DNA of 64,000 bases from Octopus vulgaris (taxonomy: Eukaryota). Below, one piece after another: positions 3,225 through 49,209 of this stretch (position 1 is its first letter; every line of letters starts with the position of its first letter). Both the position numbers and the translations under genes were made by a program. The notes beneath the pieces were generated by a model, which ran no database searches, was not told the origin of the DNA, and saw only the letters and a list, made by a program, of their open reading frames with translations. The stretch is from positions 98,642,001-98,706,000 of the forward strand of contig OX597819.1 of NCBI GenBank assembly GCA_951406725.2, written 5' to 3'.

Positions 3225-3359
3225 ATTGTATACGTTGCTGCCAGCTTGCCCTATATTTTCCTTTCCGTGCTGTTGATAAGAGGTTTAACCTTGCCTGGAT
3301 CATTGGATGGACTATATTACTTCGTCAAGCCAGAATGGGAAAAAGTAACAGACCTCTCA
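3225..3359 (+). CDS. SLC6 exon (TM5): [45 protein letters not shown]
   Basis: acag| acceptor, |gtaagt donor, 135 nt, phase 0/0; SLC6 TM5 motif. Confidence 0.95.
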
Positions 3360-9300: not shown

Positions 9301-12300
9301 ATATGACATTGTTATTGTACAAAATCAACATTTCATCAACCCAACAATTATTTTTTGTATTTTGCCAGGTCCAGGGATTGTCTTTATAGTTTACCCACAA
9401 GCACTTTCAACTTTACCTTTTGCTCAGATCTGGGCAGTAATTTTTTTTGCAATGTTGGTGTTGATTGGCTTAGACAGTCAAGTACGTATTTTGTTGTTAT
9501 TGTTGTTTTTGTTGCTGTTGTTGTTGTTGTTTTATTGCTGTTGTCTTCTTCTTTTTCTTCCAATGAGGACTCACACCGTTAGCCACAAAGAATAATCTCT
9601 GATTCGAGCCTACTCTAAGCTACTAAGAATGCGTGTGGAAACTTGAAGATCCACCGACCACACGCGATAGACTGGCGGTTGCACGGGCCCGAAAGCTACG
9701 TTGTTATCCACATTCCGTAAACGGTAGCTTTTAACGGGTGGAGAGCTGAACCATCCTGGGGTACAGAGGATTCGCAATCTAGACTAGGGTCTGAAAGTTT
9801 AACACACCATAGTGGATTACACCATGGTTCCTCTGCTTTGTGGGAGAAAGAATGAGAGAAAGTTGTGGTGAAAGACTACAGCGGGGTTCACTCCCACCAC
9901 CGTCGGAGTCTCCTGGAGCTTAGGTGTTTTTGCTCAATAAACACTCACAATGCTCGGTCTAGGAATCGAAACCGCGTTCTTACGACCGCGAGTCCGCTGC
10001 CCTAACCACTGGGACATTGCGCCTCTATTATTGCTGTTGTTGCCGTTATTGTTGATATGGTTGCTGCACTTATTGTTGTTGCTGTTGCTACAGTAGAAGT
10101 CTGAGATTTCGTAGATAAATAACTGTTTGTGAACAGTCCGAACGCAGGCTTTTACGAGGGGCGTTCAATAAGTAATGACCCTAACCCACTTGCAATTGTT
10201 TGATCTAGCTGAAATTTTGCACGTGCACTTATTTATACCTTCTATAGATTAAGTGGCGAATTACAGCTCTGAACTAATTGTTGTTTCTGATTTACAGGTG
10301 TTTGAACTGAGTCAAGTGTGAAATGGAGCCTGTTGAGTGTCGAGCAGTGATCTGGTTTTTGTATTTGAAAGGACGCACACCACAGGAGACTTTTTATGAA
10401 ATGAAAGTAACTTATGGTGATGATGCCCCATCATATGACCTTGTAAAACGCTGGCATTGTGAATTCAAACATAGTCGGAACTCTGTGGAAACAGCTCCCA
10501 GATCTGGTCGCCCCTTCTGCCGTTGATGAGACGTCTGTCCGTCAAGTTGAGGCTGCCATTTTGGAAGGTCAACGCATAACTATTCGCCAAATAGCCCATA
10601 AGGTCAAGATTAATACCGGGTCTGTGGAAACTATCAGTCATGACCATTTGCTTATGCAAAAGGTGTCTGCCAGATGGATTTCCAGGTTGCTCACACCTTT
10701 CCAGAAGCAAGAACGCGTTGAGTGCTCGAGGATGAATTTGGAGATGTGCCAAGAAGATGAGTCAAAATTTTTCAAAAGACTGATCACACAGGATAAAACC
10801 TAGGTCCATCACTATGATCCATAGACCAAAGCCCAGTCAATGCAGTGGAAGCACCGTGACTCACCTCCTCCAAAGAAGGCAAGGGTGCAGCCCTCCGCTG
10901 ACAAGGTTATGCTCACAGTCTTCTGGGACCAGGACGGAGTAGTGATGACAGATTTCCTGGCAAAGGGTACCACAATTACAGGAGCCTATTATGCTTCACT
11001 TTTGAGGAAATTAAGAGAAGCTATCAAAATCAAGAGGCGGGGCAAGATCAGCAAAGGCATCTTCCTCCTGCAGGACAACGCTCCGGTCCACAACTCGCGT
11101 GTCGCCAGATCAGAAGCACAGGCGTGCAGCTATGAACTCCTCCCCTTGCACCCTCTGATTTTCACCTCTTCCCAGCCATCAAGTTGATTTTGAAAGGAAA
11201 GCGTTTCCCAGATGATGCAGCCTTGATTTCTGAAGTCACGTCGTGGTTGGAGGACCAAGCTGGGGTCTTCTACAAAAACGGTCTCCAGAGCTGTATCAAA
11301 CGATGGGAGAAATGCATAACTCTGGGTAGTTTCTATGTAGGAAAAGACTAATAACTGTGCCAAGTGTCGTTGCTCTACTGCTACGGGAAGTGGGTCAGGG
11401 GCATTACTTATTGAACGCCCCTCGTATTCCCTTTTAAAATCCCTTTATTTCCATCGCTTCCAGTTTTTCCTTCCATTATACTCTTCACATCTCTAAATTT
11501 CAGAGATGAAGGTGTGCAATAGTGTATCAAAATCTCAAAGAGTCACTATGTATTCATTATTTGGATTTGCTCTCAGCCATTATCAAACTGGGATCTAAGG
11601 ATTAAAAAAAAAAACATAACTATAATTTATTTTCATTTAAAACTCCCCGAAAGTGGAATGTTCTCTTCAATGTTCTTTTATTCTTTTATTCATTTATTTG
11701 TTTCAGTCATTTAACTGCGGCCATGCCAGAGCACCGCCTTCAGGGGTTTTTAGTCGAACAAACCGACCCCAGTCTTTCTTCTATCGGTCTCTTTTGCTCT
11801 ACCTGGGGTTGTTTTGATCGACTAAACAGTTCAAGGCGCTGCTCCAGCATGGCTGGAGTCCAATGACTGAAACAAGTAAAAGATTAAAGATAAATTTGAA
11901 ATTAACCGATTGTTTGATTATTTGATTTTGTGGTTGTTGTTTAGCTCCAAGCCAGATATAATGTGGTAAACTTAAGAGAAAAGGCCTACATGTGGCCATC
12001 CTGTCTTTCGTATTTAGACATAGCATATATAAGTAAATGTCACAGATCGATCTAACTAAATATAGATTTCTTTAAATCTATAATACAAATTCTTCAAAAT
12101 GTCAATTGTTTTCTCTTTCAGTTTGGTCATATTCAAGTGATTGTTACTGCTATTACAGATGTGTATCCAGAAAAATTTGGCAGCAATCACAAGACTTTGT
12201 TAACCGGAATTGTCTGTTTAGTTTGTTTTCTTTTTGGAATCGTTTTAATTACGGAGGTAAGAGACTTCAATAGGGTTATCAAGGGAGGTAACTCGATTAC

Positions 12301-15300: not shown

Positions 15301-15889
15301 ACAACTCTTATGAAAAAAATGCATTCGATGCTTAGCCCGTCACAGAACTGCAGCCTTCGGCTCACATTCTCCCGACATGAATCTATACGAATGATGATCA
15401 ATGAGTTCATTCCAGCTGCAAGAGTCTTGTATTATCTTTAAGTGTCTAGGATTACATTACATAATAAGTTCTCCCCATTTTAAAGATTATAAATGTACTT
15501 CGAAGGAAATTTTGTTACTGTTTATAGGCGTGAGCAGCCTTCTTTGATGTTGAAGGAAGTGAAACTGTTGATATAACGAGAGAAGATATGTTAGTCAACG
15601 TGTGGCCATCCCCCAAAAATAATGCGGTTTTTTTAAATACTTCTTTCATTTTTCAAAATTAAGATATCTGACGTGTTGTTATAATATGTGGATTACTTGT
15701 GAAGTGACACTAATAAGTGTTGCTGTGTATTTCTAGGGTGGACTCTACGTCTTACAAATAATAGACTGGTACTGTGCTAGTCTTACTCTGATGTTGATAT
15801 TGTTTCTTGAAATCATTGCAGTTGCCTGGGTTTACGGTAAGATCATCATCATTATCATTATATCGTCATCGTCGTCGTCGTCGTTGTCG

Positions 15890-15934
<45 letters not shown>

Positions 15935-18207
15935 ATCCCCTCCTACTTATCATCATCCTCATCATCTTCGTCATCGTCAACATCATTAGCATCTTCATCA
16001 TCGTCAACATCATTATTGTCCTAATGAGAATTTTGTCCATTTTCATTCGCTTCTATGCCAGTGTCAAACTCGAGATAGAAGAAAACGATATAGAATGTTA
16101 TAACACACACACACATGCACACAATGCGTGCACCACTCAAACACCACAAACACATACATACATCATACATACACACACATGCACAGAGCCATATGTAAAC
16201 ACGCACATACATACACACATGCATATACCTATACAAGAAACCTCCGCATTACGGTACCCCAGGTAAGTGTAAAATACCATGACTAATTTCGGAATACGGT
16301 CAGTAATTTCACAATTATGGTAACTAGGATGAGACTCATCGTAATGTGTCGATAATCACGAAGGTAATTAAGAAACCTTTGTGTAGTGATTTGCAGAAAA
16401 TGGAAGTTGGTACTTTTAATGAAAAGCTTTTTCTGGCCAGTAAAGGTTGGTTTGGAAGGTTTAATAAAGCGTTTGATATTGTTAATACAGAAGCTGCTTC
16501 CCAGAGCTTCTGAAAAATTAAATAATAATTGTTAAAGAGTGCTACACACCAGAGCAAGCATATACTGATGATGCAACTGCACCTTTCTGGAAGCTCATGG
16601 TTGCTGGAAGTTTTCTTCGAAAAGAAAAAGCAATGCCAGGAATAAAAGCTTTTCAAACCGTCTGGTGCTTCTTCTGGGAGGCAATGCTGCTGATAATGTG
16701 AAATTAAAGACATTATTCGTATATCGTTCCAAAAAATGTAACAGATTACAAGGATTGCTCAAAGTTTAATCTGTCTCTGATTTGTTCTAAATGTAAAGGC
16801 AAGGACGACTAAGAGCCTCTTAAAGAGTGGTTTCCAAATATTCTGTGTTCTGCTGCTGGGAGGCACAGTGCCAGACATATTTCCAACAAACATTGCTCTT
16901 TATAGACAATTCACTAAGCCATCCAGCTTAAATGAACTTTCTGGTAATGTGAGTATAATATATCCTCCCAAATACAACTTCTTTGCTCAGCCACAGGATT
17001 AAGGTGTGATAGCTGACGTCAAGACATTATCTGAGAATAGCTTTCAAATTACTTGTGAATGCAGTTGACAAAGATGATTAACCTACTGTTAGAGGCTTCT
17101 GGAAGAAGTTCAATATAACGGATGCTATGGATTACAAAGCTGAGTTGTGTGATGAAATGAAACTCTCAACTATAAATGATGTTTGGAAAATATATGGCCA
17201 GACTGTATCAGTAACTTTGCAAGTTCTTCACAAGCAGAAACTCTACATTAAAGTTAGTCGGAAAGTTATTGTGACAATGGCAAATGATATCATGTTTGAA
17301 GAAATCATTGAGGATGACGTGAATGAATTTATAATGTCCCATAGAGAAAATTTATCAAACGAGGGGGGCTGATGCTGTTAGCACAAGTGCAAGTTGAGAT
17401 CACAGAAGGGAATATGAAAACTTCCACAATTCCATTAAACTGACTGCGAAAGATATTGCTAAAGGTTTGCAAGTTTTTGTTGATAACAACCTTAATCGCG
17501 AAAGTAAAATATTAAAAGAGGTGCTCAGCCAGTTGCATGTTAATTTTTCGAGCTGGCTGTTCGTTGAACGGATCAACTGGAACACTCGTCGTCGTAACCA
17601 ACGGAGTGCCAGTATGAATATTTGTATAGGAGGTTGTGTAGAGTTTCAGAGGACTGAGAAGAGTTACATATTAAAAAGCAACTATTAAAAGGCTTTGAGA
17701 GTCGTAAGAGGAACTTTAAATATAATTACGTTCGTAATATATTTCTGTAAAGAATATTAACAAAACCATTTACTTACAAGAGGATCGTGATACATAGATG
17801 AGTTAGAAATATATTTCTATAATGGACATTAACAGCATTATTATATTTTGTAGGAGCCAGAAGACTAGAAAATGATATCAGCCTAATGTTGGGCCGAAGA
17901 CCTTGGCCAGTTTGGAAACCTTTGTGGACTGTCATCAATCCACTGTGTCTTCTTGTAAGTTCTTTATTAATCCCATCTGTAACAAATCCTATTTTATATA
18001 CGATTTATACACCACTACAGTATATAGGTCTGTTATACACTTCAATAGTTACAAGTTCACTGTCGTTCAGCCTCAGAACAGAGTCAAACCAATAGAACTG
18101 GTTTATCACAAACACTGCTGTTTAATTTAGGTACATACTTGTTCGTGATAATTGGAGTGTGTGAGTGTTTGTCGATATCTTTGTTTTGTTTGTTTTTTGT
18201 TTGTTTG

Positions 18208-20304: not shown

Positions 20305-21881
20305 AAGGTGTAATGTGGAAGTGCTAGGTAGTACTACACACTAGAAAACGACACCTCAATACATAACTTTATTTTCCTTTACTTTTATATTTTGAGTTTA
20401 TTTCCATGATTACATTCCTCTTTATATATATATACCTATTTTTACATAATGAATTTACCTACCATATATACTATTCTACTTTGCATAAAACTTTAGCTAT
20501 ATTGGTACTTCTGGCTCTCGTTTTTTAAGTATTCTAATGCGTCAATATTCTACAAAGATGATGGTACCTTTTTTAATTATAATTTTACTTTGTAAATGAA
20601 GATCAAATGAGTTTTAATATTCAAATTCTATCCTTAGCTGCAATATTTTAAGTAAAAATTGTCTTGTTTTGTACTTTACCAGATGTAATAAGTTGTCCTG
20701 AACTTTTCCAGGTTTATAATCTTAAGAATATTATTTCGCTTGCTCTCATTTTTCCATGTAATCCATGTTTTTTCCAGGTTATGCTATGATGCTAATTAAT
20801 AATGTGTCAATTAATAATCTAAGATTTTACTTTATTGAAAATTGAATTCGATAAACTTTCAAAGAACAACAGCTACTAATATTACCCATCCACATCAAAT
20901 TAATGGCAGAGAATTTTGCCATTTCAAAGGTTGCACTATGGTTCACCAATCGGTAACAAACAAAAAGACCCAAAACCATCAGTTACCAGGCTCACCTTAA
21001 GTAACCTAGATTTTGAGTTGGTGATAATAGCAATGACTGCTGCTGATCTAGATCTATCAATAATGATTCAATACAACAGTAATTATGAAAGCATATCACA
21101 TATACACAAGTGAAAATTACCTTCATTCCCATACTACAAAAATTGATATATGAAAATCCTTTTAAATTAATTTCGATATTAAATATTACGTTTAGAATAT
21201 AATCACTTTATAATAATGCCTTTTCTGGACAGCCTTACTACATGCTTTCAGGCTGCCTATAGAAACAGCCAAAAATGACTATATTCTTTCCCCAATAAAA
21301 TTAGATGTGTACATATGAAGCATATAAAACATTAATGAACTAGCCTGATTATATAATTAACTAAAAAGAAAAAGGGAAGCAACTAAAAAGGAATTAGCAA
21401 AAAGCGTAGAAAGCAAGTAAAGCTGAAAGTGAAAATTAATAAAAGTTAGACTTACTTAAGTGCACTAGCATATTAAAAATAATTTTATCAATTAAATATT
21501 AAAGTTTAAAAATAAGTTGTAAAATATAAGCACTTTTGACTAATGCCTTCTCTGAACAGCCTTACTACATGACTTCAGTACTGCCCATACAGACACAGCT
21601 AGAAATGCCTATATTCTATCAAGTGAATTTTGGATTTTAAAGAAAATAAAGATAAAAAAATTATTCAAATTTATTATCTTGCAATTATTAATAAATGATA
21701 TGCATGTTTATAAGCAAGAAATTATTGATTTCATAAGAAGGAACAACAACTACAGTATAATCATCTTGAATTTGCAATATGGCTCACCAAACGATAGTAA
21801 ATTGCAAGAACCCAAAATGTTCAGTCACCAGGCTCACCTTAAATCACATAGATCTTGTGTTGATGAAAACATATATAAAAT

Positions 21882-23540
21882 GTTTCATTAAAGACGATAT
21901 GGACATGCAAGAGGATCTACCAAAAACCACCAACGAAGAAGCACTATTAGTTTCCTTCGATGTCATCAACCTATACACCAACATTCCACATGACTACGGA
22001 ATAGAGGCAATAAAGTTCTGGTTAGAAAAATACTCCGAAGTTCCCCCGGACCCCATAAACCTAGATTTTTGTCATTGAATCTCTGAAGTTCATCCTACAA
22101 AACAATTACTTCCTATTCGATGAAACATGCTATCACCAAAAATGCGGTATTGCGATGGGAACAAAAAAAGCAACGACTGTCCTTGCGAACCTAATAATGG
22201 GTTTCTTTGAATCTACTCTATATGAATTTTCGCTCCAAAAATTTGGATCCCTATTCCACCAGTATATAAGAGAAAACTGGAGAAGGTACTTAGACGATTG
22301 TTTTATCATCAGGAATGAAACCTATGATATCCTTCACTGAACAATATAAACGCCAATATTCAATTTACAATGGAATATAGCAATGAACAGCTCCCATTTC
22401 TGGACATTTTGATTATAAAAAAATCCAACAATGAAATTGCCACCGACATCTACCACAAACCAACATATTCAAAACAGTATCTCCTTTTCAGCTCATGCCA
22501 TCCTAAACACACCAAAATAAATATCCCATTCAATCTAGCAAAACATCTGTACAATTGTATCTGATACAGCTACTCGGGAATTTCGCCTACAGGACCTCAA
22601 AATAACACTCATTGAACGCCAATACCCACCCGCATTGATAGACCATGGAACTAGACACAAACACATTAAAGACAACAAAACACAACACCATGCCTCACTT
22701 TAAATCACTCCCATTCATATCAACCCACAACCCTTAGAAACAATGAAGCAACACAATCGTACAAAATCTCCCTCTGCTCATTCACGATCCGAAAAGGAAC
22801 AACATTCTGAATACACATAAACTCCTCAAATGCAAAAGACAACGCAAATCACTTCAGAAACATCTAACAAATGCAAAACTGTAGTCAACACATACGATAC
22901 CAACAGCTAAAGAAATGCGGACGACCTAATTGGGGTACATGTCCAAACCTAAGGCTCACATTCCAGCAAGGAGAAAAATATTTAATTAAAACCAACTTCA
23001 CATGTGCCTCTCAGAAACTAATTTATGTCGTAGCCTGCTCAGGTTGTGGCCACAATTATGTAGGCCAAACGAGCCTTACTTTGAGATGCAGAGTTACACT
23101 ACATAAAGAACAGATTCGTTTTCCTCAAAGCAGGCAGATAGCTCTGAGCGAACTTATTGACAGATGCACAAGAAATAAAACACCGAATTTTCATATTTTC
23201 CCATTATACCAATACAAGGATTCAATCTCCTTACAAGAACGCCTAAACAAGGAAAATCTTAATATATAAACTTGACAACCTGATCCCTACGCTTTGCTAT
23301 TTCAAAATCAAATTTATTTACCACTATTCAATGATGCTGAGGAGGTAGATGTCCCCCTTACCACCTGTTGACTCCTTTTATCCACTCTTTCCATTCAATT
23401 TTACTTCTCAAGAAATGCAAAATGGCGTGATTCCTTATCTCAAGGAATTATTACTTTACAATGACCCTTGAAAAGCTAATGTAAATAGCGAAAACCGGCT
23501 GGATATCACTACATTTTATCAGACTTTTACCATCCATAAA
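21882..23540 (+). mobile_element. Penelope-like retroelement (RT + GIY-YIG endonuclease), 5'-truncated and frameshifted
   Basis: LVSFDVINLYTNIP, GIAMGT, WRRYLDDCF, LPFLDILI, YHKPT..KQYL.F.SCHP, and C....LIYVVAC..C...YVGQT...R...H motifs in the correct order. Confidence 0.9.
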
Positions 23541-26549: not shown

Positions 26550-27535
26550 CTACTCAGGGGCCTACGCAGAGTTGCAGAAAGTGTATGGAGAGGAGTGTAT
26601 GAGCCGCACACAAGTGTACGAGTGGTTCAGACGTTTTCCAAGATGACCGAAAAAATGTCGATAGTGACGAACGATCTGGGAGACCTGCAAACAGCAGAAC
26701 TGAAAAAAAACATCGCAGACGTGCGTGCAACTGAGAGGAAATCGAATCGACATCCGTGAGTAATCAGAGGATGTGCAGATTAGTTACGGCTCAGTTTAGT
26801 CCATTATCACTGAAGATTTGGATATGAGACGCGTATCTGCCAAGTTTGTGCGAAAAGTGGAAAACTGTAGCCCCCCCCCCTTCAAAAAAACACACTCGGA
26901 TTTCAGTTGAACAAGATCTCCTTGAATGTGCTGAGAACAATCAAAACTTTTTGAAAACGGTCGTAACGGGTGATGAATCGTGGGACTATGGCTATGACCC
27001 TGAAACAATGGCTCAGTCTTCGCAGTGGAAGACCCCAATTGCTTATGAGTCGAAGTAATGTGAAGGTACTGTTGACCGTTTACTTTGGCTACAAGGGGAT
27101 CGTTCATGGAGTATACGCCACCTGGCCAGGCAATAAACAAGTAGAACTACCATAACGTTTTGCGGCGTTTGCGGGATGCTATTCGCTGGAGAAGGCCTCA
27201 ATTGCATGTGTCCGGTGTGTGGCAATTGTACCCTGACAATGCACCTACCCATTCAGCGCAGCTTGTTCTGCAGTTTTTGACTAGACACAACGTTCCCCAC
27301 GTCCAACAGCCACCGTATTCCCCAGATCTCGCCCATTGCCAATTTTTTCTCTTTCCAAAAATCAGATTCAGCTCGAAAGGAAGAAAATTTCAGGACGTCG
27401 AGGAAATGAAAATGAATGCAACAAGGCAGCTGCTGATTATCTCATAAAACGAGTTCCAGGAATACTCCAATCAATAGAAACAGCGCTGGATTAAGTGTGT
27501 GGCTTTCGAAAGGGACTACTTTGAAGGAGATTAAA
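26550..27535 (+). mobile_element. Mariner (DD34D) transposase remnant
   Basis: VYEWF.RF, R.SAKFV, TGDESW.YGYDPET, DNAPTH, PPYSPDLA.C.FFLFPK and YFEGD* motifs, frameshifted. Confidence 0.9.
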
Positions 27536-27588
27536 TGCCAAATTGGTACGTGTTGTAGCTTTGTTTTTATAGCATCAATTTAGACCTT

Positions 27589-27703
<115 letters not shown>

Positions 27704-30880: not shown

Positions 30881-31259
30881 ATGAAATTAATAATAATGTT
30901 AATGATTACATACTCAACTAACGAAGAAAGAAAGGAAGGGAACAGAGGTTTTTTAAACGTAGAGGATACTATCAGCATTTCAATGTTCGCTTTGAAGACG
31001 TTAAGAAGATAAAAAAGGCTGTGGCAAAGGTTCTGGGCACCTTCACTTTGGAGGACTTCCGTGGTGCTTTCACAAAGCGGTTGGAGCGCTACAAGTCCAT
31101 TTAAGTCAGAAGATCCTATTTGGAAGGAGATTAGAGTTTTGTACTTCTTTGAAATTAATAAATATCTGCTCTATATTTAAGAGATGAGGAATTATGTACA
31201 TTATTTACATTATTTACATTCGACGGATATTTGTCTTCATCTTGTTCTCATATGCCCGC

Positions 31260-31332
31260 GGTCATATGGCGTAGTGGTTAAGAGCGCGGGCTACTAACCC
31301 CAAGATTACAAGTTCGATTCCAAGCAGTGACC
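31260..31332 (+). pseudogene. tRNA-like SINE head (anticodon-loop-like CT-ACT-AA); probably not a functional tRNA
   Basis: 73 nt, GGTCA/TGACC acceptor-like stem, A-box TGGCGTAGTGG, B-box GTTCGATTC; imperfect stems, no oligo-T terminator. Confidence 0.7.
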
Positions 31333-31391
31333 TGAGCACTAACAACAACAACAACAATAATAGTAGTAGTAGTCGTAGTAGTAGTAGTAGA

Positions 31392-31451
<60 letters not shown>

Positions 31452-31564
31452 TAAGATTGGAAGTGTTATCATGTACATTGTTATGTCTTGGTATAATAGA
31501 TGGCTACAGCAAATATTCTGCTCAATACCACAAATTTGCTTGTCAGTTGCTTGACCTTAATCAG

Positions 31565-31916
31565 TTGAGCATGTCCCTTAGTGGCCGACAAAATGTACAT
31601 CTCTGATCACGAGCAGAAGTAGTGGGGGAGCATCATAGCCATGTGTTGAGAGAGATTCTTTGGGGTTTGAATAATTCACCTTTGGAAACATGGGTGTTTT
31701 GTTCAACATCTTTAAACAACCCTTAATCAGGGACCTTTTGAGCATGTCCCTTAGTGGCCGACAAAATGTACATCTCTGATCACGAGCAGAAGTAGTGGGG
31801 GAGCATCATAGCCATGTGTTGAGAGAGATTCTTTGGGGTTTGAATAATTCACCTTTGGAAACATGGGTGTTTTGTTCAACATCTTTAAACAACCCTTAAT
31901 CAGGGACCTTTTGAGC
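31565..31916. repeat. Exact 173-bp tandem duplication with TTGAGC junction microhomology
   Basis: TTGAGC at 31565, 31738 and 31911; the two units appear identical. Confidence 0.95.
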
Positions 31917-32021
31917 GGGATGGGTTACTCGACCAGAAGAAAATTCTAACTGGGCCCCACCTGCAAGGTCATGTGATATGAGATCACCATGTCGCACATA
32001 TATGGTTGTGATGCATATGTC

Positions 32022-32051
32022 GGGTTAGGGTTAGGGTTAGGGTTAGGGTTA
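32022..32051 (+). repeat. Interstitial telomeric repeat (TTAGGG)4 plus partial units
   Basis: gggttagggttagggttagggttagggtta. Confidence 0.9.
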
Positions 32052-32149
32052 TCAGACGGGTAGTCATGATGGGTATAATGGGCTTCATATATTTTGCTCC
32101 AGTGTCACTTTGATGGCATGCACTGCTCTCTCACTCAATAATAATAATG

Positions 32150-32234
<85 letters not shown>

Positions 32235-32286
32235 CAACATCGAAAAATACCTTAGGAATGAGAACCCAGGTTCGAAATTTCCCCAA

Positions 32287-32332
32287 GATACCTGAAGAAG
32301 GCTGGAGAGTATATCAGCCGAAACGTTGTGTT
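32287..32332 (+). ncRNA. Putative minimal type I hammerhead ribozyme (Penelope-type)
   Basis: GAUAC-CUGAAGA-A-GGCUG(loop)CAGCC-GAAA-CG-UU-GUGUU: conserved core, 5-bp stem II, 5-bp stem I including G-U pairs, palindromic AACGUU stem III. Confidence 0.65.
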
Positions 32333-33965
32333 AACAACAAAGATAAGGACAAATATCCGTCGAATGTAAATAATGTAAATAAAATAATAAATATCTGTCC
32401 TGAAAATGTCTCAAAATTTCTTGAATACACCTTGTATTTTGTGCAAGATTAGAAAGGATGATGCACAACATATTTCATCGATATGCCAGTAGTAATTCTG
32501 TCTTTTTGCAGTTGGAGACATGACTGATATGCTTCATTTATAACAGGGCAGATTTGATGTGAAGAGTCTAAGTTAGATAATTTTTACCTGCTGAACGTTG
32601 AGGAAGGAGCAGTGTCCATAACCTGTTAGTTCAGAATGGTTTATGTTATTAATGATTTGAACCTTTGCAAGTCAACACCAACAGTAAATATATGAGGAGT
32701 GGAGAAACTAGAGTGCCAACATATTTCGAAGGAAGAACTGGGTTTATGATTAATGTGGGGCCTGGTGGGGTTGGTTACAAGAAGGGTGATAAGTGAAGAG
32801 ATGAGTGAAGACGGCATGAGCTCAACCAGATCCGAAGACAGAGGCCATTATAGTAACCGTGGATAAATTTTTATGTACCGAGTTCAAATCCCACCTACGT
32901 TGACCTCGTTCATTTCTTAAAGGTTGATAAAAAATACAACTCAAGTGCTGGAGTTGAATTAACAGTCCATTCAAATTTGAGGTTGTATGCCTATGTTAGG
33001 GACTAAATAATATGGGTATGCACTCAATACGAGTATGTGCACAATACTACTTGCTATGAATGTTTTGAAAATGAGTTAATAGATTTAGTGAAAATTAGTT
33101 AAATCTTGCAAACTCGGATTCGAACCTTCTTATAGAACGTAATAATCTAGAGTCAAATGAAAATAGAAGTTTTACTTAGCGATTTGTTTGAGTGTGCCAA
33201 TCTTACAAATGTGACTCTTTATATATGTCCCTGCTATTATTGTTACACCTCATATGTGTCACTGCTATAATTTTGACTCTTTACATGTGTCCCTGCTATA
33301 CCTGTAATACTTTATATGCTACTGCTACAAATGTGACATTTGTTTAATTTAGAAACACGTTTTAGAAGTAAACGCAAATGTAGATTATAACTAAAAGAAA
33401 TGTCTAGTAACCATAAATATATCGTTGTGCCGCAAATGAAAGTGTTTTTGTTTTTACTCCAAGATTGAGTATATTAAGTGAACAAACACAAAGATCGGAT
33501 CTAAATCGCAGATTTTATATTACAGCGTTCTCATATGACACGAATTTATTCCTAACAATGACAAGAGGCCACAGATTTCTGGGGATGAATATAGATTATT
33601 CAAAAGGATGAAAGCAAAGTTGACTTCGATGTACTTTGAGCGTAAAAGGTAAAGGACCGAAACAAATTATCAAATAGCATTTTGTCTGGAACTATAGTGA
33701 TTGTGCAAGCTCTTGGAAATTGCCATTATAAACTCTTTCTCGGCGATACACAGTAGAGTCCGAAGAGCTCGTTTTTAAACATATATGTTGCTATTGTCCA
33801 AACCCCCAAATAGTTCACATCAACGCTACACATACATACATACATACATACATACATACATACATACATACATACATACATACATACATACATACATACA
33901 TACATACATACATGCATGCATGCATACATACATACATACATACATACATACATACATACATACAT

Positions 33966-35482: not shown

Positions 35483-36452
35483 CGAGATGGTTTCAAAGAG
35501 TTCCCGGCCTAGTTCTGTAGCGCGCCAACAAATGGCAGTACACGATTGCGTGCGTAGTGAGAACTAGTAGTGACCTTTATGAGGCAGTGTGCTAAGTGAC
35601 ACCGCTGTTTACTTCGCAAGTTGTGAAATTTGCGTTTTTGTGATCACCTGTATGCTGTAGTCTGCGATTTTTGTCATGGACAAGAAGTTGAAACAAAGAG
35701 CCAACGTGAAATTTTGCGTTAAACTTGGTAAATCTGCCACAGGGGCATTGAGCATACTTCGGCAAGCTTACGGCGACGAGGCGATGGTTCGTAAGCAATG
35801 TTTTCAAAGGATTATCACTGGTGACGAGAGTTGGGTCTACAGTTATGACCCTGAAACGAAGCAGCAGTCATCACAATGGAAGAGTTTTTCATCTCCACGA
35901 TCGAAGAGAGCACGACAGAGTCGCAGATCAATCGAGAGCATGCTCATCGTGTTTTTCGACATCCGCGACATTGTGCAGGGCCAGACCGTCAATCGAGAGT
36001 TCTACTTCGACGTTTTGAAGCGTTTGAGGAAGGACATACTACGAAAGCGATTGAATCTATGGAGTGCGAAGAATTGGATTCTTCACGGCACTCTGCCACC
36101 GAGCTCTTCTCATTCGTGAGTTTCTCTCCGAAAATAACATGGTATCGCTTTCGCACTTGCCCTGTTCATCGGATTTAGCACCTGCAGATTTCCATCTTTT
36201 CCCTAAGATGAAAACGTAGCTAAAAATCGCCGTTTTAACACCGTTGTAGAGATTCAGAGTGAATCGCAGAAGGTCCTCGAATCGCTTCCGGAAAACGACT
36301 TCCAGGCCGGATTCCAACAGTGGCAGAAACGCTTGGACAGGTGTATTGCTGCGCAAGATAACTATTTCAAAGGAGATGATGTTAAAACTTTGTTAAATAA
36401 GTTATTTTCTTATTAAATATAACTAGTACGGGAACCTTTTGATACAATCTCG
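35483..36452 (+). mobile_element. Internally deleted mariner transposon
   Basis: Imperfect TIRs cgagatggtttcaaagagttcccggcctagtt / aactagtacgggaaccttttgatacaatctcg with TA flanks; QRANVKFCVKLGKSA, ITGDESWVYSYDPETK, SDLAPADFHLFPK motifs. Confidence 0.9.
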
Positions 36453-41248: not shown

Positions 41249-41458
41249 GTGAGTCTATTCAATATCCTAGTAATTTCAAACACTGTCTTGTACTTAATAT
41301 AACTAATTAAATATTAGTTTTTCTTTCACGTTTTCCTTCTTATGCTCTGACCTGATGTGGTTTTTACTACATCAAATATCTTATGTACCTTGTAATTCTA
41401 ATATTTTAATGCTTTCATTGTTTTAATTTTATTATCTCAATTCAAACATATTTCAGTG

Positions 41459-44400
41459 ATGTTGTTCCTGGATATACTTCTTCTAATCAAGTTAACAGTG
41501 GGTGTGCACTGTTGGAAAACTTCCAATTTAACAAATAATAAGGATATGGTTGTTGCCAATAAGAATATATTAAAAACTCCAGCAAAAAAGAATATTATTA
41601 TTTCAGACAGAGAGAAATATTCGAGCAGGTTGGTAAACAACCGGAAAAGAATATCTTCAGATTTGGCAATATTTAGAAATATCTACGTAGATATGGATAT
41701 AAACAGTGTTAAACAGAAACAATTAATTTTCGAAATATTTTCTAAATTCTACAGAAAACATATGAATTGTCAAAGAAACAATTTAGATCAAAGATCGACT
41801 GAGGAAATGATATATTTTTGTAAAAAACAACTGCAAAATAAAGTGCTAAAGTTTCATAATGGTATCAAAGAGGACTTGCAAGTAAAGCCAGTCAATAAAC
41901 AAATGAAATATTTTCTAACAAAGAACAGCCAAAATCTTGCGGAAAGATTTCAGGTTTATTATAAATATAATTGGACTTTTCAAATTTGTTCTATATTTAC
42001 TGCAATGCTCAACAATAACTTCCGAAATTTTAAATTTAAAGTACAGAATTTCGTCACTACCAAATCAACGCTGAAACTTTATCTTTCAGATTTAAAAGTT
42101 TTGGAAAACGTAGCGAAATATATGCTAGACTGCGATTTGATGCTAAAGAAGAAACAGAATATTAACTCAGACTCTGAAATCCATACTGGGTTACCGGTTT
42201 TGGAAGAAGTATTACCAAATAATGTAACAAACTTTCTGGTGACAGAAGGTAGCAAGAATATAAAACCACCCGAATATTCCAAGATCAGTGTGGCACCTGA
42301 AAGTCATGAACACGTTAAAATTACAGATACAAGTATATTTGTAGATGATACTGGTAGCAAACATTTACCAGAACATACAACGCTCGGTATAGCAGAAGCG
42401 TCCTCGAGTAATAACGTGAAACTTATTGTCAATCCTGGTTCACCTGTAAACTCACCAGGAACTACTAACAAGCTTTCTACCGGAAAAACCTCTCAAGCGT
42501 CCAGTTGTTCATTTATAACACGCTTACTCACAATCCACAAACCTATTCACCATAGTTCTATTCAGATCAATAAGAATCCTTCATTAATGTTTACTAGTAA
42601 CCATGCAACAGTTCTGACATCGAATAAGGAACAACCAATATCTTCTCTTCAATATAAAATAACTTTACCAAAATTATTGACATTTTTATTTCGGAAGGAA
42701 AATTTGAAATTTAAAGAAACACCATTTATTCCGAAACACAACTACGAAGTAATCTTTTTGCCAAAGTATTCTTCCCTAGTTTCAAATATTTTAATTCGTT
42801 TCGAATTTCGTTCGAAGTATAGATCTTTCATACTGGTCATCTGTAGATCTAATCTTGTTCATCGAAGACCAAAAGTATTTTGGAATTGCAAAATTTTCAG
42901 ATATGCATATCATCAAATCAAGAAAAAATCAAAATACATAACTATCTTAATCACAGGTAGATTCTTAGTTCTTTTTCCAATAACTCGTTTAATTTTCAAA
43001 TATAACACCATTCCATTTATTTCCTGGACAAATTCGAACTCAGATTTTCAGAAATCAGTTGGAAACAATTCTCCAATCCAGACCAGTCAATGTAAATTTT
43101 CAATTAATTTATTATTGTTTTCTACTCTAGGCACAAGGCTCGAAATTTTTGAGGAGGTGGGCCAGTCCAATATATCGACCGCAGTATACAATTGGTACTT
43201 AACTTATCGACCCCGAAAGGATGAAAGGCAAAGTCGACCTCGGCGGAATTTAAACTCTGAACGTAAAGACAGGCGAAATACCGCTAAGCATTTCGCTCGG
43301 CGTCGAATCAAGTCTTTAGAGGAAATATTTTCTTCGTTCACCGGCAGGAAATTATTATTTAATGTTAAGTCAACTAATTCTGCTCTTATTCACAAATTAA
43401 TAAAAAGGGATTTAAAAAGCAGTCAGCAGTTAACATCACAAAAGACGATTCAGTCTTTTTCTAACGCGTCCAACGACCCAACCACTCCAAATTTGATAAC
43501 TTCGTCCTTGATTCACTCCTCAGCTGTGGTTACATCAAAAGAATCCACAACACAATTGCGTTCTTCAAAGGAAACAATTTTGGGGTTTTCTAATATTACC
43601 GAATTACCAAAGCAGTTGGAGAATGTTAATTCCTCAACGGTAAATTTGACACAAGCTGTTGATTTAAATAAAACATTTAACATGGTAGATATTATAATTC
43701 AACCAGCTATTTTATTTACTGGAATAATTGGCAACACCATCTCTGTTCTTGTCTTTAGATCGACGGAGTTTAAAAACGAAGTGGCTTTTTATATACCAGT
43801 GTTCCTTTCTACAATTGAAATGCTTACAGGTATAATCGTATTTTTTGACAGCGATTTTTATATTTATTTCTTTGGAGGGAAAATATCGAACCTAAATTTC
43901 ACCATGTGCAAGGCATTTCATTATCTGAAAGTTTTTGTCAAATCTACATCGGCTTGGGCAATTGCTATGATGTCAGCAGAACGGTTTATTGCGGTCAAGT
44001 TTCCATTGAAAGCTAAAATCTACATCACAAAATACAAAGTTATGACTACAGTGGTTGTTTGCTTTCTAGTTGAGATAATGCTTAATTTCTCTCAGCTCGG
44101 CATGAGGTCCTATAATAATGACCAATGCGTTAAATCTAAACCAACTCATAATATTTTGGTTATACTAATAACAATGTTTAACGGGTGGCTTATTCCAACA
44201 TCAGCCACTGTCATACTGAATATATTAATTATCATCCATCTGAGGCGACAGAGCAGGATTCGAAATACACTCACACGTGAAGATAGAAGTCAACAATTTC
44301 GACAGATTAACGTCATGCTTTTTACCATAATAATTTGCAAATTTATCTTTGAATTACCACTAATGATACAACATGTATTAACGTGGGTTCGCTATGGATT

Positions 44401-44530
44401 AAGCGATCTTTTAGATAGTGTATTTATGGCTCTTGGTTTTACACAGCATTCTATAAATGCCTTTTTGTACAGTTTTGTTTCAAAATCTTTCCGTTCTGTA
44501 ATTTTGAGATGTTTTCGAAACAAAAGCTAA
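41459..44530 (+). CDS. Class A (rhodopsin-like) GPCR, FMRFamide-receptor-like/molluscan orphan type, with signal peptide and very long (~740 aa) N-terminus; single coding exon
   Basis: Uninterrupted 3-kb ORF in AT-rich DNA. ATG at 41459 follows a tttcag acceptor. Hydrophobic leader MLFLDILLLIKLTVGVHC. 7TM region from ~43682 with GIIGN (TM1), C...AW....MSAERFIAVKFPLKAK (TM3), IP...LN (TM5), ELP (TM6), INAFLY...SKSFR (TM7/H8). Confidence 0.88.
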   Translation: MLFLDILLLIKLTVGVHCWKTSNLTNNKDMVVANKNILKTPAKKNIIISDREKYSSRLVNNRKRISSDLAIFRNIYVDMDINSVKQKQLIFEIFSKFYRKHMNCQRNNLDQRSTEEMIYFCKKQLQNKVLKFHNGIKEDLQVKPVNKQMKYFLTKNSQNLAERFQVYYKYNWTFQICSIFTAMLNNNFRNFKFKVQNFVTTKSTLKLYLSDLKVLENVAKYMLDCDLMLKKKQNINSDSEIHTGLPVLEEVLPNNVTNFLVTEGSKNIKPPEYSKISVAPESHEHVKITDTSIFVDDTGSKHLPEHTTLGIAEASSSNNVKLIVNPGSPVNSPGTTNKLSTGKTSQASSCSFITRLLTIHKPIHHSSIQINKNPSLMFTSNHATVLTSNKEQPISSLQYKITLPKLLTFLFRKENLKFKETPFIPKHNYEVIFLPKYSSLVSNILIRFEFRSKYRSFILVICRSNLVHRRPKVFWNCKIFRYAYHQIKKKSKYITILITGRFLVLFPITRLIFKYNTIPFISWTNSNSDFQKSVGNNSPIQTSQCKFSINLLLFSTLGTRLEIFEEVGQSNISTAVYNWYLTYRPRKDERQSRPRRNLNSERKDRRNTAKHFARRRIKSLEEIFSSFTGRKLLFNVKSTNSALIHKLIKRDLKSSQQLTSQKTIQSFSNASNDPTTPNLITSSLIHSSAVVTSKESTTQLRSSKETILGFSNITELPKQLENVNSSTVNLTQAVDLNKTFNMVDIIIQPAILFTGIIGNTISVLVFRSTEFKNEVAFYIPVFLSTIEMLTGIIVFFDSDFYIYFFGGKISNLNFTMCKAFHYLKVFVKSTSAWAIAMMSAERFIAVKFPLKAKIYITKYKVMTTVVVCFLVEIMLNFSQLGMRSYNNDQCVKSKPTHNILVILITMFNGWLIPTSATVILNILIIIHLRRQSRIRNTLTREDRSQQFRQINVMLFTIIICKFIFELPLMIQHVLTWVRYGLSDLLDSVFMALGFTQHSINAFLYSFVSKSFRSVILRCFRNKS
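43118..43303 (-). mobile_element. tRNA-derived SINE copy (family A), 5'-truncated, embedded in frame in the GPCR ORF
   Basis: Matches other window copies (13918-14080, 58780-58995): tttctactctaggcacaagg...ggtactta..ttatcgaccccgaaaggatgaaaggcaaagtcgacctcggcggaattt.aactc.gaacgtaaagac...gaaataccgctaagcatttcgctcggcgt. Confidence 0.95.
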
Positions 44531-47690: not shown

Positions 47691-47938
47691 CAGACCTAAC
47701 GTGCTAACGTGCGGTAAAAAACACTTGATAAAACGTTTGCTCATAGATAAAACATGTCTTCTCATTATTTTGTTTATTGTAATGTTGACAATAAAAATTT
47801 TACTGTAAACCATCAAATAATGTACTCTAGAATATCAGACAGTAAAATACTGTACTCTAGACTCAAGGCCATCAAATACTTTACACAAATAGATTTTGCA
47901 CTCCACCAGACAATCAAACGCTGTATAATAGACACATA

Positions 47939-49209
47939 CGAGGGGCGTTCAATAAGTAATGCCCCTGACCCACCTCCCATAGCAGTAGAGCAACGAAACT
48001 TGGCACAGTTATTAGTCTTTTTCTACATAGGAACCACCCAGAATTACGCATTTCTCCCATCGTTTGATGCAGCTCTGGAGACCGTTTTTGTAGAAGACCC
48101 CAGCTTGGTCCTCCAACCACGACGTGACTTCAGAAATCAAGGCTGCATCATCTGGGAAACGCTTTCCTTTCAAAAACAACTTCATGGCTGGGAAGAAATG
48201 AAAATCAGAGGGTGCATGGTCAGGAGAGTAGGGGGGATGGGGTAGGAGTTCATAGCCGCACGCCTGTGCTTCTGATCTGGCGACACGCGAGTTGTTGACC
48301 AGAGCGTTGTCCTGCAGGAGGAGGATGCTCTTGTGATCTTGCCCCGCCTCTTGATTTTGATAGCTTCTCTTAATTTCCTCAAAAGTGAAGCATAATAGGC
48401 TCCTGTAATTGTGGTACCCTTTGCCAGGAAATCTGTTCAGAAGACTGTGAGCATGACCTTGCCAGCGGAGGACTGCACCCTTGCCTTCTTTGGATGAGGT
48501 GAGTCACGGTGCTTCCACTGCATTGACTGGGCTTTGGTCTCTGGATCATAGTGATGGACCCAGGTTTCATCCTGTGTAGTCAGTCTTTTGAAAAAGTTTG
48601 ACTCATCTTCTTGACACATCTCCAAATTCATCCTCGAGCACTCGACGCGTTCTTGCTTCTGGAAAGGTGTGAGCAATCTGGGAATCCATCTGGCAGACAC
48701 CTTTTGCTTATGCAAATGGTCATGAATGATAGTTTTCACAGACCCGGTACTAATCTTGACCTCATGGGTTATTTGGCGACTAGTTATGCGTCGATCTTCC
48801 AAAATGGCAGCCTCAACTTGACGGACAGATGCCTCATCAATGGCAGAAGGGGGGCGACCAGATCTGGGAGCTGTTTCCACAGAGTTCCGACCATGTTTGA
48901 ATTCACGATGCCAGCGTTTTACAAGGTCATATGATGGGGCATCATCACCATAAGTTACTTTCATTTCATCAAAAGTCTCCCGTGGTGTGCGTCCTTTCAA
49001 ATACAAAAACCGGATCACTGCTCGGCACTCAACAGCCTCCATTTCACAATTGACTCAGTTCAAACACCTCTAAATAAGAAACTACAATTAGTTCAAAGCT
49101 GTAATTTGCCATTTAATCTATAGAGATATATATAATTGCACATGAAAAATTCAAGCTAGATCAAACAACTGCAAATGGATCAGGGGCATTACTTATTGAA
49201 CGTCCCTCG
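47939..49209 (-). mobile_element. Near full-length mariner, same family as 10155-11424, inverted and inactivated
   Basis: Same TIR sequence and TA flanks; ORF 48437-49042 with ARWIPRLLT and QDETWVHHYDPETK; deletion after KVMLTVF. Confidence 0.95.

What the first reader, a model, noticed from the sequence alone, without database searches (positions are those of the whole stretch)
31169..32384. Composite tRNA-head + hammerhead element with an inverted end and 13-bp TSD: candidate Penelope-mobilised SINE/retrozyme
Seen: a unit flanked by TAATAAATATCTG direct repeats interrupts a mariner 3' end. In order it contains an inverted copy of its own 3' tail (31169-31246, extending further than the right copy), a pol III A/B-box tRNA-like head (31260-31332), an (AAT)n tract with a nested repeat, a second B-box-like motif (GGTTCGAAAT, ~32269), a hammerhead motif (32287-32332) and the tail (32336-32384). 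Established: Penelope-like elements carry minimal hammerheads in their pseudo-LTRs and often insert with an inverted partial terminal copy, whereas typical SINEs borrow LINE tails. Inference: this is a pol III-driven non-autonomous element using Penelope RT/GIY-YIG machinery, an uncommon SINE-partner pairing.
Basis: partly seen in the sequence, partly recalled or inferred. Interest (0 to 1): 0.8.

Follow-up and report, generated by a model that had tools for sequence, protein, structure and literature searches.

The report
tRNA-headed parasite of Penelope retrotransposons
This is one copy of a very abundant short jumping element in octopus DNA that joins a tRNA-derived start to the hammerhead-ribozyme end of a Penelope-type retrotransposon and inserts with Penelope's signature, so it looks like a SINE that borrows Penelope enzymes instead of the usual LINE enzymes.

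Summary
A 13-bp duplication flanks: an inverted tail copy 31-32 nt longer than the right copy, a 20-bp junction palindrome, a tRNA-like head (A box +8, B box +53), an AAT tract split by an unrelated nested repeat, a minimal hammerhead and the tail. In contigs of four public runs, head and tail are both very high copy. The head is the family's 5' boundary. The tail continues into the hammerhead. Other mariner copies carry the 13-mer once. 12 of the 15 joints shown (of 87) fuse an inverted tail, cut at 10 different points, to the head start, in two organisms. This matches the published Penelope-like (PLE) insertion signature. Translated-repeat hits reveal a sister family with the same hammerhead/tail, tandem and inverted copies, and two copies reading on into a shared coding frame, probably an autonomous PLE (not tool-confirmed). 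Best reading (0.78): a pol III-driven SINE mobilised by PLE machinery. It is probably not a retrozyme. Not shown: the actual partner, transcription, cleavage, and whether this is an already named octopus SINE (OK/OR1). I found no PLE-mobilised tRNA SINE in 10 literature searches.

The parts
30924..31168 (+). 3' remnant of a mariner-type DNA transposon (target of the insertion), left part
   Evidence: Translation matches the DDE-type C-terminal part of P0146 at E 4e-14; Pfam alone gave no hit; multi-copy in runs
31156..31168 (+). Target-site duplication, left copy (13 bp; 17 bp with one mismatch)
   Evidence: other mariner copies run straight on into the sequence found at 32398ff, 26 of 30 letters alike
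31169..31246 (-). Inverted, 5'-truncated copy of the element's 3' end, including the optional 31-32 nt extension (31169-31200) that the right copy lacks
   Evidence: family 3' end lies about 5 nt beyond 31170 (499 and 530 contigs with mixed flanks)
31249..31268 (.). Junction palindrome: inverted copy of the first 9-11 nt of the head followed by the head start
   Evidence: 18 of 20; 94-99% of depth at 31262 reads G, which makes it perfect; longer fold-backs in 105 (X1), 21 (X15) and 12 (X17) contigs
31260..31332 (+). tRNA-derived head: A box 31267-31277, B box 31312-31320, acceptor-like stem; 5' boundary of the family
   Evidence: mixed flanks upstream in 217 (X1) and 178 (X11) contigs, agreement 0.4; no ARAGORN or Rfam call
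31341..31454 (+). Internal simple-repeat tract (AAC/TAG/AAT), left part
   Evidence: head followed by an AAT-type tract in 2 contigs of X17
31455..32136 (+). Nested, unrelated repeat that landed in the AAT tract (looks like the 5'-truncated 3' end of a microsatellite-targeting LINE; the Dong/R4 label is recalled, not tested); holds a perfect 173-bp tandem duplication (31565-31916) and (GGGTTA)5 at 32022-32051
32137..32239 (+). Internal AAT/AAC tract, right part
32240..32286 (+). pLTR-derived body with ATG at 32258 opening a frame through hammerhead and tail; includes the B-box-like motif 32269-32278
32287..32332 (+). Minimal type I hammerhead: helix I 5 bp, CUGAAGA core, one unpaired base, helix II 6 bp, GAAA, palindromic CG, GUU triplet; predicted cut after 32327
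   Evidence: features as defined in PMC4209133
32333..32384 (+). 3' tail, short form (match to the family ends at 32382)
   Evidence: tail preceded by the hammerhead in 336, 297, 50 and 46 contigs
32385..32397 (+). Target-site duplication, right copy
32398..32435 (+). Remaining mariner 3' end
   Evidence: matches the empty-site continuation of other mariner copies

Best explanation
A high-copy, non-autonomous retroelement of octopods of about 300 nt. It is a tRNA-derived pol III head fused, through a simple-repeat spacer, to the hammerhead-and-tail segment of a Penelope-like (PLE) pseudo-LTR. Inferred cycle: pol III starts at the head and reads through the tail, which has no T4 terminator. A PLE RT/GIY-YIG protein supplied in trans binds the pLTR-like part and nicks AT-rich DNA on both strands about 13 bp apart. 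It starts reverse transcription at either of two internal sites about 31-36 nt apart. One cDNA runs to the head; the other is made from the opposite nick and stops early; the two are joined head to head through a short fold-back. This gives the inverted truncated copy, the unequal ends and the TSD. The RNA that is copied must be uncleaved, because the hammerhead cut would separate head from tail. A different repeat later inserted into the AAT spacer of this copy. SHOWN: anatomy, true TSD, high copy number, head as 5' boundary, recurrent head/inverted-tail junctions, two 3' ends, homology of the tail to a sister hammerhead family. INFERRED: pol III transcription, the PLE enzyme as mobiliser, the two-nick mechanism.
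For:: 12 of 15 joints shown join an inverted tail (10 different break points, 31194-31231) to the head start (31259-31267): 24 contigs in X1, 16 in X11, 2 in X15, 0 in X17. In X1 most of these contigs have depth near the single-copy flank (38.4), unlike library chimeras. None of the 15 is a strand-changing (same-orientation) head/tail joint. Junctions are at least 1.3% (bound) to 5.7% of resolved head 5' ends in X1, against 0.07-0.21% if heads fell at random into tails. Head/tail summed-depth ratio is 0.65 in X1 and 0.60 in X11. The published PLE signature is the same: inverted 5'-truncated pLTR, optional 31-bp tail on one copy, 8-10-bp TSD, junction palindromes (PMC3846280; PMC8557442). The tail equals the gap between two internal RT start sites, both strands are cut and extended, AT-rich/ATT targets are preferred, and cleavage is not needed (PMC11167929). 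Minimal hammerhead features are met. Sister family: 136 units in 153 stored translations, 88 with and 48 without the extension, 31 tailed units followed by another unit, 13 proteins with sense and antisense copies. P0039 and P0106 both read on from the tail into the same frame (75 of 85 identical), as the pLTR-ORF junction of an autonomous PLE does.
Against: No RT- or GIY-YIG-bearing protein starting with this peptide was found. The sister family's coding continuation was not recognised by Pfam, PDB or the ESM Atlas, and its fold model has pLDDT 47; its PLE identity rests on arrangement and on my recall of PLE N-termini. The one PLE remnant in the window (21770-23269) shows no similarity to the tail. 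The forward link head-AAT-hammerhead was not spanned in other copies, because the tool skipped 31331-31360 and the stretch laid ended at 31360. 72 of 87 joints and 826 loose-end rows were not shown. Joint sides are short (19-42 letters). Junctions shared by X1 and X11 may be inherited rather than independent, and X1 may be the window's own source. Rfam and ARAGORN recognise neither head nor hammerhead.
Confidence: 0.78

Rival explanations
1. A non-autonomous PLE derivative whose tRNA-like 5' part is a passenger: it is mobilised by PLE enzymes but transcribed by pol II read-through, not from the A/B boxes.
For: No transcription data. The head is decayed (T stem broken, no Rfam or ARAGORN call). 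PLE pLTRs can carry unrelated sequences in trans (PMC3846280).
Against: The family's 5' boundary falls at the tRNA +1 position; A and B boxes sit at tRNA spacing; the head, body and tail lack T4 runs that would stop pol III.
Confidence: 0.09
2. Chance nesting: an ordinary tRNA SINE (head plus AAT tail) and solo PLE pLTR fragments that meet because both are abundant and favour AT-rich or AAT sites.
For: Both parts are very abundant, so some junctions must arise by chance. The forward link across the AAT tract was not spanned in other copies.
Against: One TSD encloses inverted tail, head and forward tail. 12 of 15 shown joints are inverted tail-to-head, at least 6-fold above the random rate at the most cautious bound (1.3% against 0.21%). 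Depth ratios are alike in two organisms.
Confidence: 0.05
3. An animal non-LTR retrozyme: multimeric transcripts are self-cleaved, circularised and reverse transcribed by rolling circle.
For: Type I hammerhead; unit size about 300 nt; retrozymes are proposed PLE dependants (bioRxiv 10.64898/2026.07.22.740005; PMC7761336); a few head-to-tail tail joints are seen (tables 5 and 5c).
Against: Single unit with a fixed, non-permuted 5' end at the head. The hammerhead is minimal, with no helix III, and such monomers did not cleave in vitro (PMC4209133). The preprint's criterion of at least two consecutive hammerhead-bearing units is not met at this locus.
Confidence: 0.04
4. A conventional LINE-mobilised SINE that happens to contain a PLE-derived segment.
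For: tRNA head, TSD of LINE-like length, and many LINE families active in octopus (PMC13282606). LINE twin priming also makes inversions (recalled).
Against: The 3' end is a defined sequence followed by mixed flank, with no poly(A) or repeat tail evident. LINE twin priming inverts the upstream part of the template, whereas here the 3' end itself is duplicated in inverted form (established knowledge). There are two alternative 3' ends, as in PLEs.
Confidence: 0.04

Closest known systems
Canonical EN+ Penelope-like elements (Penelope/Poseidon, Neptune) and their pLTR insertions; Pen2a_Av of Adineta, PAc of Anolis
   Same: Minimal hammerhead near the 3' end, frame opening inside the pLTR, inverted truncated copy at the 5' side, optional 30-40-nt extension on one copy, junction palindrome, TSD, AT-rich target.
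   Different: No RT/EN coding capacity; a tRNA-derived head forms a fixed 5' end instead of variable 5' truncation; TSD 13 bp against 8-10 bp in the Adineta examples.
tRNA-derived SINEs (SINEBase definition), including octopus OK, OR1 and OR2 (Ohshima & Okada 1994, not readable here)
   Same: Short, non-coding, tRNA-derived head with A/B boxes, very high copy, TSD.
   Different: The SINEBase definition requires a partner LINE and a simple-repeat 3' tail; here the 3' end is PLE-like and the simple repeat is internal. OR2 is a CORE-SINE (PMC4758252); I saw no room or evidence for a CORE domain here but had no CORE consensus to test. Identity with OK or OR1 is open.
Schistosome Sm-alpha/Sj-alpha SINE-like repeats
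   Same: Pol III-type promoter plus a type I hammerhead (PMC6765202; PMC8490949).
   Different: Those are tandem, with an active hammerhead that releases monomers from multimers; no PLE insertion signature is described in the passages I read. Here the copies appear dispersed and monomeric, with a minimal hammerhead and PLE ends.
Animal non-LTR retrozymes and non-autonomous PLEs (MRC1 of Chlamydomonas; short non-autonomous Penelope of butterflies)
   Same: Non-coding dependants of PLE machinery with 3' similarity to autonomous families.
   Different: No tRNA head or pol III promoter is described for them in what I read (0 occurrences of 'tRNA' or 'promoter' in the 2026 preprint); retrozymes are tandem arrays.
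TRIMp3 (Helenus, Ajax, Cassandra)
   Same: Same logic: a small-RNA-derived pol III promoter attached to a non-LINE retrotransposon class (PMC10886601).
   Different: They are LTR elements with PBS/PPT and 4-5-bp TSDs; this would be the PLE counterpart.

Membership tests
SINE (SINEBase definition) | Short (<700 bp), non-coding, high copy | tested here: met
   About 300 nt without the nested piece; summed depth 3.6 M (head) and 5.6 M (tail) against 38.4 for unique flank in X1 (not a copy number, but orders of magnitude above single copy)
SINE (SINEBase definition) | 5' head from a pol III RNA with internal promoter | tested here: met
   A box +8, B box +53, 0.01 expected by chance; head is the 5' boundary; Rfam/ARAGORN negative
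SINE (SINEBase definition) | Transcribed by pol III | not testable with these tools
   Only contigs were available; RNA status of X15 and X17 is a guess
SINE (SINEBase definition) | 3' tail of simple repeats | tested here: not met
   Defined 3' end followed by mixed flanks in 499/530 contigs; the simple repeat is internal
SINE (SINEBase definition) | Depends on a partner LINE | tested here: inconclusive
   Signature is PLE-type, not LINE-type, but no LINE library was compared and no partner enzyme was found
Non-autonomous Penelope-like element | Minimal hammerhead in a pLTR-like 3' part | tested here: met
   against PMC4209133
Non-autonomous Penelope-like element | Inverted 5'-truncated copy at the 5' end | tested here: met
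   This locus and 12 of 15 joints shown, 10 break points
Non-autonomous Penelope-like element | Optional 30-40-nt 3' extension | tested here: met
   31-32 nt on the left copy only; of 13 own-family translations listed, 2 carry it, 7 stop or diverge at the short end, 4 are uninformative
Non-autonomous Penelope-like element | Target-site duplication | tested here: met
   13 bp; empty site in 125 mariner contigs of X11
Non-autonomous Penelope-like element | 3' end shared with an autonomous RT-GIY-YIG element of the same genome | tested here: inconclusive
   Homologous sister family reads into a shared ORF, but no RT was reached and the domain was unnamed by Pfam, PDB and Atlas; the in-window PLE remnant is unrelated
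Animal non-LTR retrozyme | Tandem array with a hammerhead in at least two consecutive units | tested here: not met
   One hammerhead in 64 kb; genome-wide arrays not examined
Animal non-LTR retrozyme | Circular RNA and self-cleavage | not testable with these tools
   No raw RNA reads offered
MITE / DNA transposon | Fixed terminal inverted repeats | tested here: not met
   Inverted part varies in length among copies and the arms are unequal here
Octopus OK/OR1/OR2 SINEs | Sequence identity with the published consensus | not testable with these tools
   Paper not held; SINEBase supplement not readable; Repbase and Dfam not available

The most novel reading that the evidence does not exclude
A third route to SINE-hood. 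One of the major octopus short repeats is a true pol III SINE whose partner is a Penelope-like element, not a LINE. It keeps the PLE's hammerhead and ORF start as an RNA recognition handle, and it exploits PLE internal initiation so that it needs neither a poly(A) tail nor a defined transcript end. It would be the PLE counterpart of LINE-SINE and LTR-TRIMp3 pairs, not yet described as such.
Probability: 0.55. Interest if true: 0.8.

Novelty: new variant of a known kind. Interest (0 to 1): 0.7.

Why it matters
SINEs are defined as dependants of LINEs; PLE dependants known so far are pLTR derivatives or tandem retrozymes without a described promoter. A tRNA-headed, PLE-tailed element at very high copy number would widen the SINE definition and reassign part of the large octopus SINE fraction (11.6% of the O. 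vulgaris assembly) to PLE activity. It is also a natural experiment on PLE integration, which is still poorly understood. The template has a fixed 5' end and is only about 300 nt, so thousands of copies record both RT start sites, the joining of the two cDNAs and the minimal cis sequence needed in trans. It also tests whether the hammerhead is kept for cleavage or for protein binding, since cleavage would destroy this element's template.

Tried and rejected
No whole genome is held, so no genome-wide count or consensus was made. Motif scans of viral contigs, metagenome contigs and genome contigs gave 0 matches. Protein-based scans: 2 loci from 27 candidate stretches in metagenomes, both short chance matches in unrelated coding DNA; 0 of 61 (viral) and 0 of 351 (genomes) for P0106. 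Rfam: no tRNA or hammerhead hit. ARAGORN: none. Homologue search at near length: nothing. Partner search at longer lengths: 1 hit and 565 hits of which 120 were listed; no listed hit is a full-length RT-bearing protein. Pfam, PDB and Atlas for P0039/P0106 were blank. The AlphaFold model of P0106 had pLDDT 47, so no fold search was run. No head-derived peptide was found in the 153 stored translations apart from one weak 9-residue match; this is uninformative, as the frame is closed by a stop. The in-window PLE remnant was rejected as partner: alignment scores were within the shuffled range. Expression: no RNA holder listed; X15 and X17 are only guessed RNA and are contigs, so nothing is claimed. 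Two short window motifs were absent from the supplement of PMC8557442. Rejected readings: MITE/TIR (variable inverted length); 13-mer as a repeat native to mariner (present once in other copies); second B box as a second promoter (no A box; conserved in the headless sister family); assembly artefact (independent contigs show the same junction type). Earlier-finding look-ups by sequence and place were empty.
Full report
Setting. The window is repeat-rich animal DNA. The named protein hits that carry this element's translation are from Octopus sinensis and O. bimaculoides, so I treat the host as an octopod. No whole genome is held.

Observation. The 13-mer at 31156-31168 and 32385-32397 occurs only at these two places in 64 kb. 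31201-31243 is the reverse complement of 32340-32382 at 95%, and the left copy runs 31-32 nt further. The head has its A box at +8 and B box at +53; it is the only such pair in the window, against 0.01 expected in 300 simulations. It is too decayed for ARAGORN or Rfam. The hammerhead at 32287-32332 has a 5-bp helix I, the CUGANGA core, one unpaired base, a 6-bp helix II, GAAA and a palindromic CG without helix III. It is the only such motif in the window, with 0 in 200 simulations. These are the features given for minimal PLE hammerheads in PMC4209133 (parts 1-2 of 4 read). Its folding z-score is only -1.9 and Rfam misses it. A 20-bp palindrome (18 of 20) lies at the junction, 31249-31268. The piece 31455-32136 is another repeat (86% to 6577-6749) that sits inside the AAT tract; calling it a Dong/R4-type LINE end is my recall, not a test.

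Other copies. I laid Logan contigs of 4 of the 24 listed runs on 30900-31360 at 82% likeness: X1 (organism A, possibly the window's own source), X11 (organism E), and X15 and X17 (guessed RNA). (1) Summed depth peaks at 5.60 M on the tail and 3.62 M on the head in X1, against 38.4 on unique flank; X11 gives 2.61 M and 1.56 M. The tool warns that this is no copy number; I read it only as very high copy, with head/tail ratios of 0.65, 0.60, 0.86 and 0.32. (2) Empty site: 125 X11 contigs of the mariner leave the reference at 31167 and continue with letters that match 32397-32426 at 26 of 30. So the 13-mer is single in the mariner family. Those contigs have C where both copies here have G, as expected if this copy's own sequence was duplicated. 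(3) 5' boundary: 217 (X1) and 178 (X11) contigs have mixed flanks before the head (agreement 0.4). (4) 3' boundary: 499 and 530 contigs have about 5 more shared letters beyond 31170 and then mixed flanks. (5) 336, 297, 50 and 46 contigs continue from the tail into the hammerhead. (6) Joints: 15 of 87 rows were shown. 12 join an inverted tail, broken at 10 different points (31194-31231), to the head start (31259-31267): 24 contigs in X1 (11 of 12 rows), 16 in X11 (10 of 12), 2 in X15, 0 in X17. The other three are one mariner deletion and two tail-to-tail tandem joints. Using only shown rows, such junctions are 5.7% of resolved head 5' ends in X1, or at least 1.3% if every hidden loose-end row near the head start is given its maximum. 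Random insertion of heads into tails would give 0.07-0.21% for 50,000-150,000 tails in 2.8 Gb (size), and as many same-orientation joints, of which none is among those shown. (7) At 31262, 94-99% of depth reads G, which makes the junction palindrome perfect; 105, 21 and 12 contigs show longer fold-backs. Limits: 72 joints and 826 loose-end rows were hidden; sides are 19-42 letters; junctions shared between A and E may be inherited; 31331-31360 was skipped, so the forward link across the AAT tract is seen only at this locus and, as head-to-AAT, in 2 contigs of X17.

Match to PLE insertions. PMC3846280 (passages) describes the typical Penelope insert as direct pLTRs plus an adjacent inverted, shorter pLTR, an optional 31-bp tail on one copy, an 8-10-bp TSD and palindromes at the inverted junction, and shows pLTRs moving unrelated DNA in trans. 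PMC8557442 (passages) gives the same picture. PMC11167929 (parts 1-2 of 4; three supplements gave no usable sequence; the GenBank file was unreadable) shows that a purified PLE protein cuts and extends both strands at AT-rich sites, starts RT at two internal sites whose spacing is the tail, has its ORF start inside the hammerhead region, and does not need cleavage. This locus reads as one cDNA from each start site: the long form on the left and the short form on the right.

Origin of the tail. A frame opens at ATG 32258 and stays open through hammerhead and tail. phmmer with this 49-residue translation gave 33 hits, nearly all short spurious ORFs. Of 13 own-family translations listed, 2 carry the extension, 7 stop or diverge at the short end and 4 are uninformative. 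The other hits belong to a sister family with the same hammerhead peptide and a homologous tail (565 hits, 120 listed). In 153 stored translations I counted 136 sister units, 88 with and 48 without the extension, 31 tailed units directly followed by another unit, and 13 proteins holding sense and antisense copies: tandem and inverted pLTR behaviour. Two of them, P0039 and P0106, from different contigs, read on after the tail into the same helical-looking frame (75 of 85 identical). That is how an autonomous PLE's pLTR-ORF junction looks, and the sequence resembles PLE N-termini as I recall them. But Pfam, PDB, the ESM Atlas and a weak fold model did not name it, and no RT was reached. The sister is related (about 50-55% peptide identity), not identical, so the true partner may be another family. 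The PLE remnant in the window (GIY-YIG at 22868-23269, E 0.005, below Pfam's cut-off) is unrelated to the tail.

Mechanism. Shown: anatomy, TSD, boundaries, recurrent inverted junctions, two 3' ends. Inferred: pol III starts at the head and reads through, since head, body and tail hold no T4 run; a PLE protein binds the pLTR-like part, nicks both strands and primes two cDNAs internally; these are joined head to head by fold-back; the template is uncleaved. Internal initiation explains how a SINE can do without poly(A) or a fixed transcript end.

Comparison and novelty. It works like a SINE in its head and like a non-autonomous PLE in its tail and insertion. It fails the SINEBase simple-repeat-tail criterion (passages) and, at this locus, the retrozyme tandem criterion (bioRxiv 10.64898/2026.07.22.740005, part 1 of 5 and passages). 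Nearest precedents are schistosome Sm-alpha (pol III plus hammerhead, tandem; passages of PMC6765202 and PMC8490949), non-autonomous PLEs and, by analogy, TRIMp3 (PMC10886601, part 1 of 6 and passages). Ten full-text searches listed no paper describing a tRNA-headed PLE-mobilised SINE or a hammerhead in an octopus SINE; the octopus repeat papers I read (PMC13282606 parts 1-2 of 3 and a supplement search; passages of PMC8967140 and PMC4758252; PMC7761336 passages) do not mention one. I could not see Ohshima & Okada 1994, Lunse et al. 2017, the SINEBase supplement, Repbase or Dfam. A repeat this abundant is very probably catalogued under some name, possibly OK or OR1 (the head looks to me like a tRNA-Arg derivative; recalled, untested), so the likely novelty is the partner and mechanism, not the sequence. 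Three unchecked notes from this scan describe tRNA-bearing, hammerhead-free elements with PLE-type ends in other genomes; they are leads that the pairing may recur, not support.

Verdict. Real and well supported as one mobile unit with PLE-type insertion. Confidence 0.78 for a pol III SINE mobilised by PLE machinery. New variant of a known kind; interest 0.70.

Noticed in passing
window 32022-32051: Five perfect telomere-type GGGTTA units inside the nested repeat; could be a telomerase-healed break or a subfamily feature.
   Followed up: no
window 31565-31916: Perfect 173-bp tandem duplication inside the nested repeat (100% identical); very recent or an assembly artefact.
   Followed up: no
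window 21770-23510: Decayed PLE: RT fragments, a CxxxxCxxC-type linker and GIY-YIG (22868-23269, Pfam E 0.005), with a degenerate hammerhead-like stretch near 23467-23505; no similarity to the element's tail. A diverged direct repeat lies at about 21200-21330 and 21520-21660.
   Followed up: partly
proteins P0003 (residues 1-37) and P0033 (residues 10-32): The element's open frame appears at the N-terminus of predicted octopus host isoforms (a cysteine-rich membrane protein; dystrobrevin beta isoform X1): possible exonisation or gene-model error.
   Followed up: no
proteins P0039, P0106 and about 120 other ENA-derived translations: Sister hammerhead/tail family with tandem and inverted copies; two copies read into a conserved unnamed frame, a candidate autonomous PLE. 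P0146 shows a sister unit inserted in a mariner similar to the target here.
   Followed up: partly
joint 31211 to 31263: One inverted-tail/head junction has depth about 677 in X1, roughly 18 times single copy: a recurrent junction or a re-amplified composite subfamily.
   Followed up: no
window 41402-44530: 1042-codon open frame whose last third looks like a rhodopsin-type GPCR and whose first two thirds are a long low-complexity extension (by eye only).
   Followed up: no
window 3300-3400, 9302-9500, 15737-15830, 17823-17960: Exon-like pieces resembling an SLC6 neurotransmitter transporter (by eye, recalled).
   Followed up: no
window 10447-11444, 26560-27590, 35592-36392, 47751-49054: Several further decayed mariner/Tc1 copies of other families (DDE_3 weak hit at 27145-27447).
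   Followed up: partly
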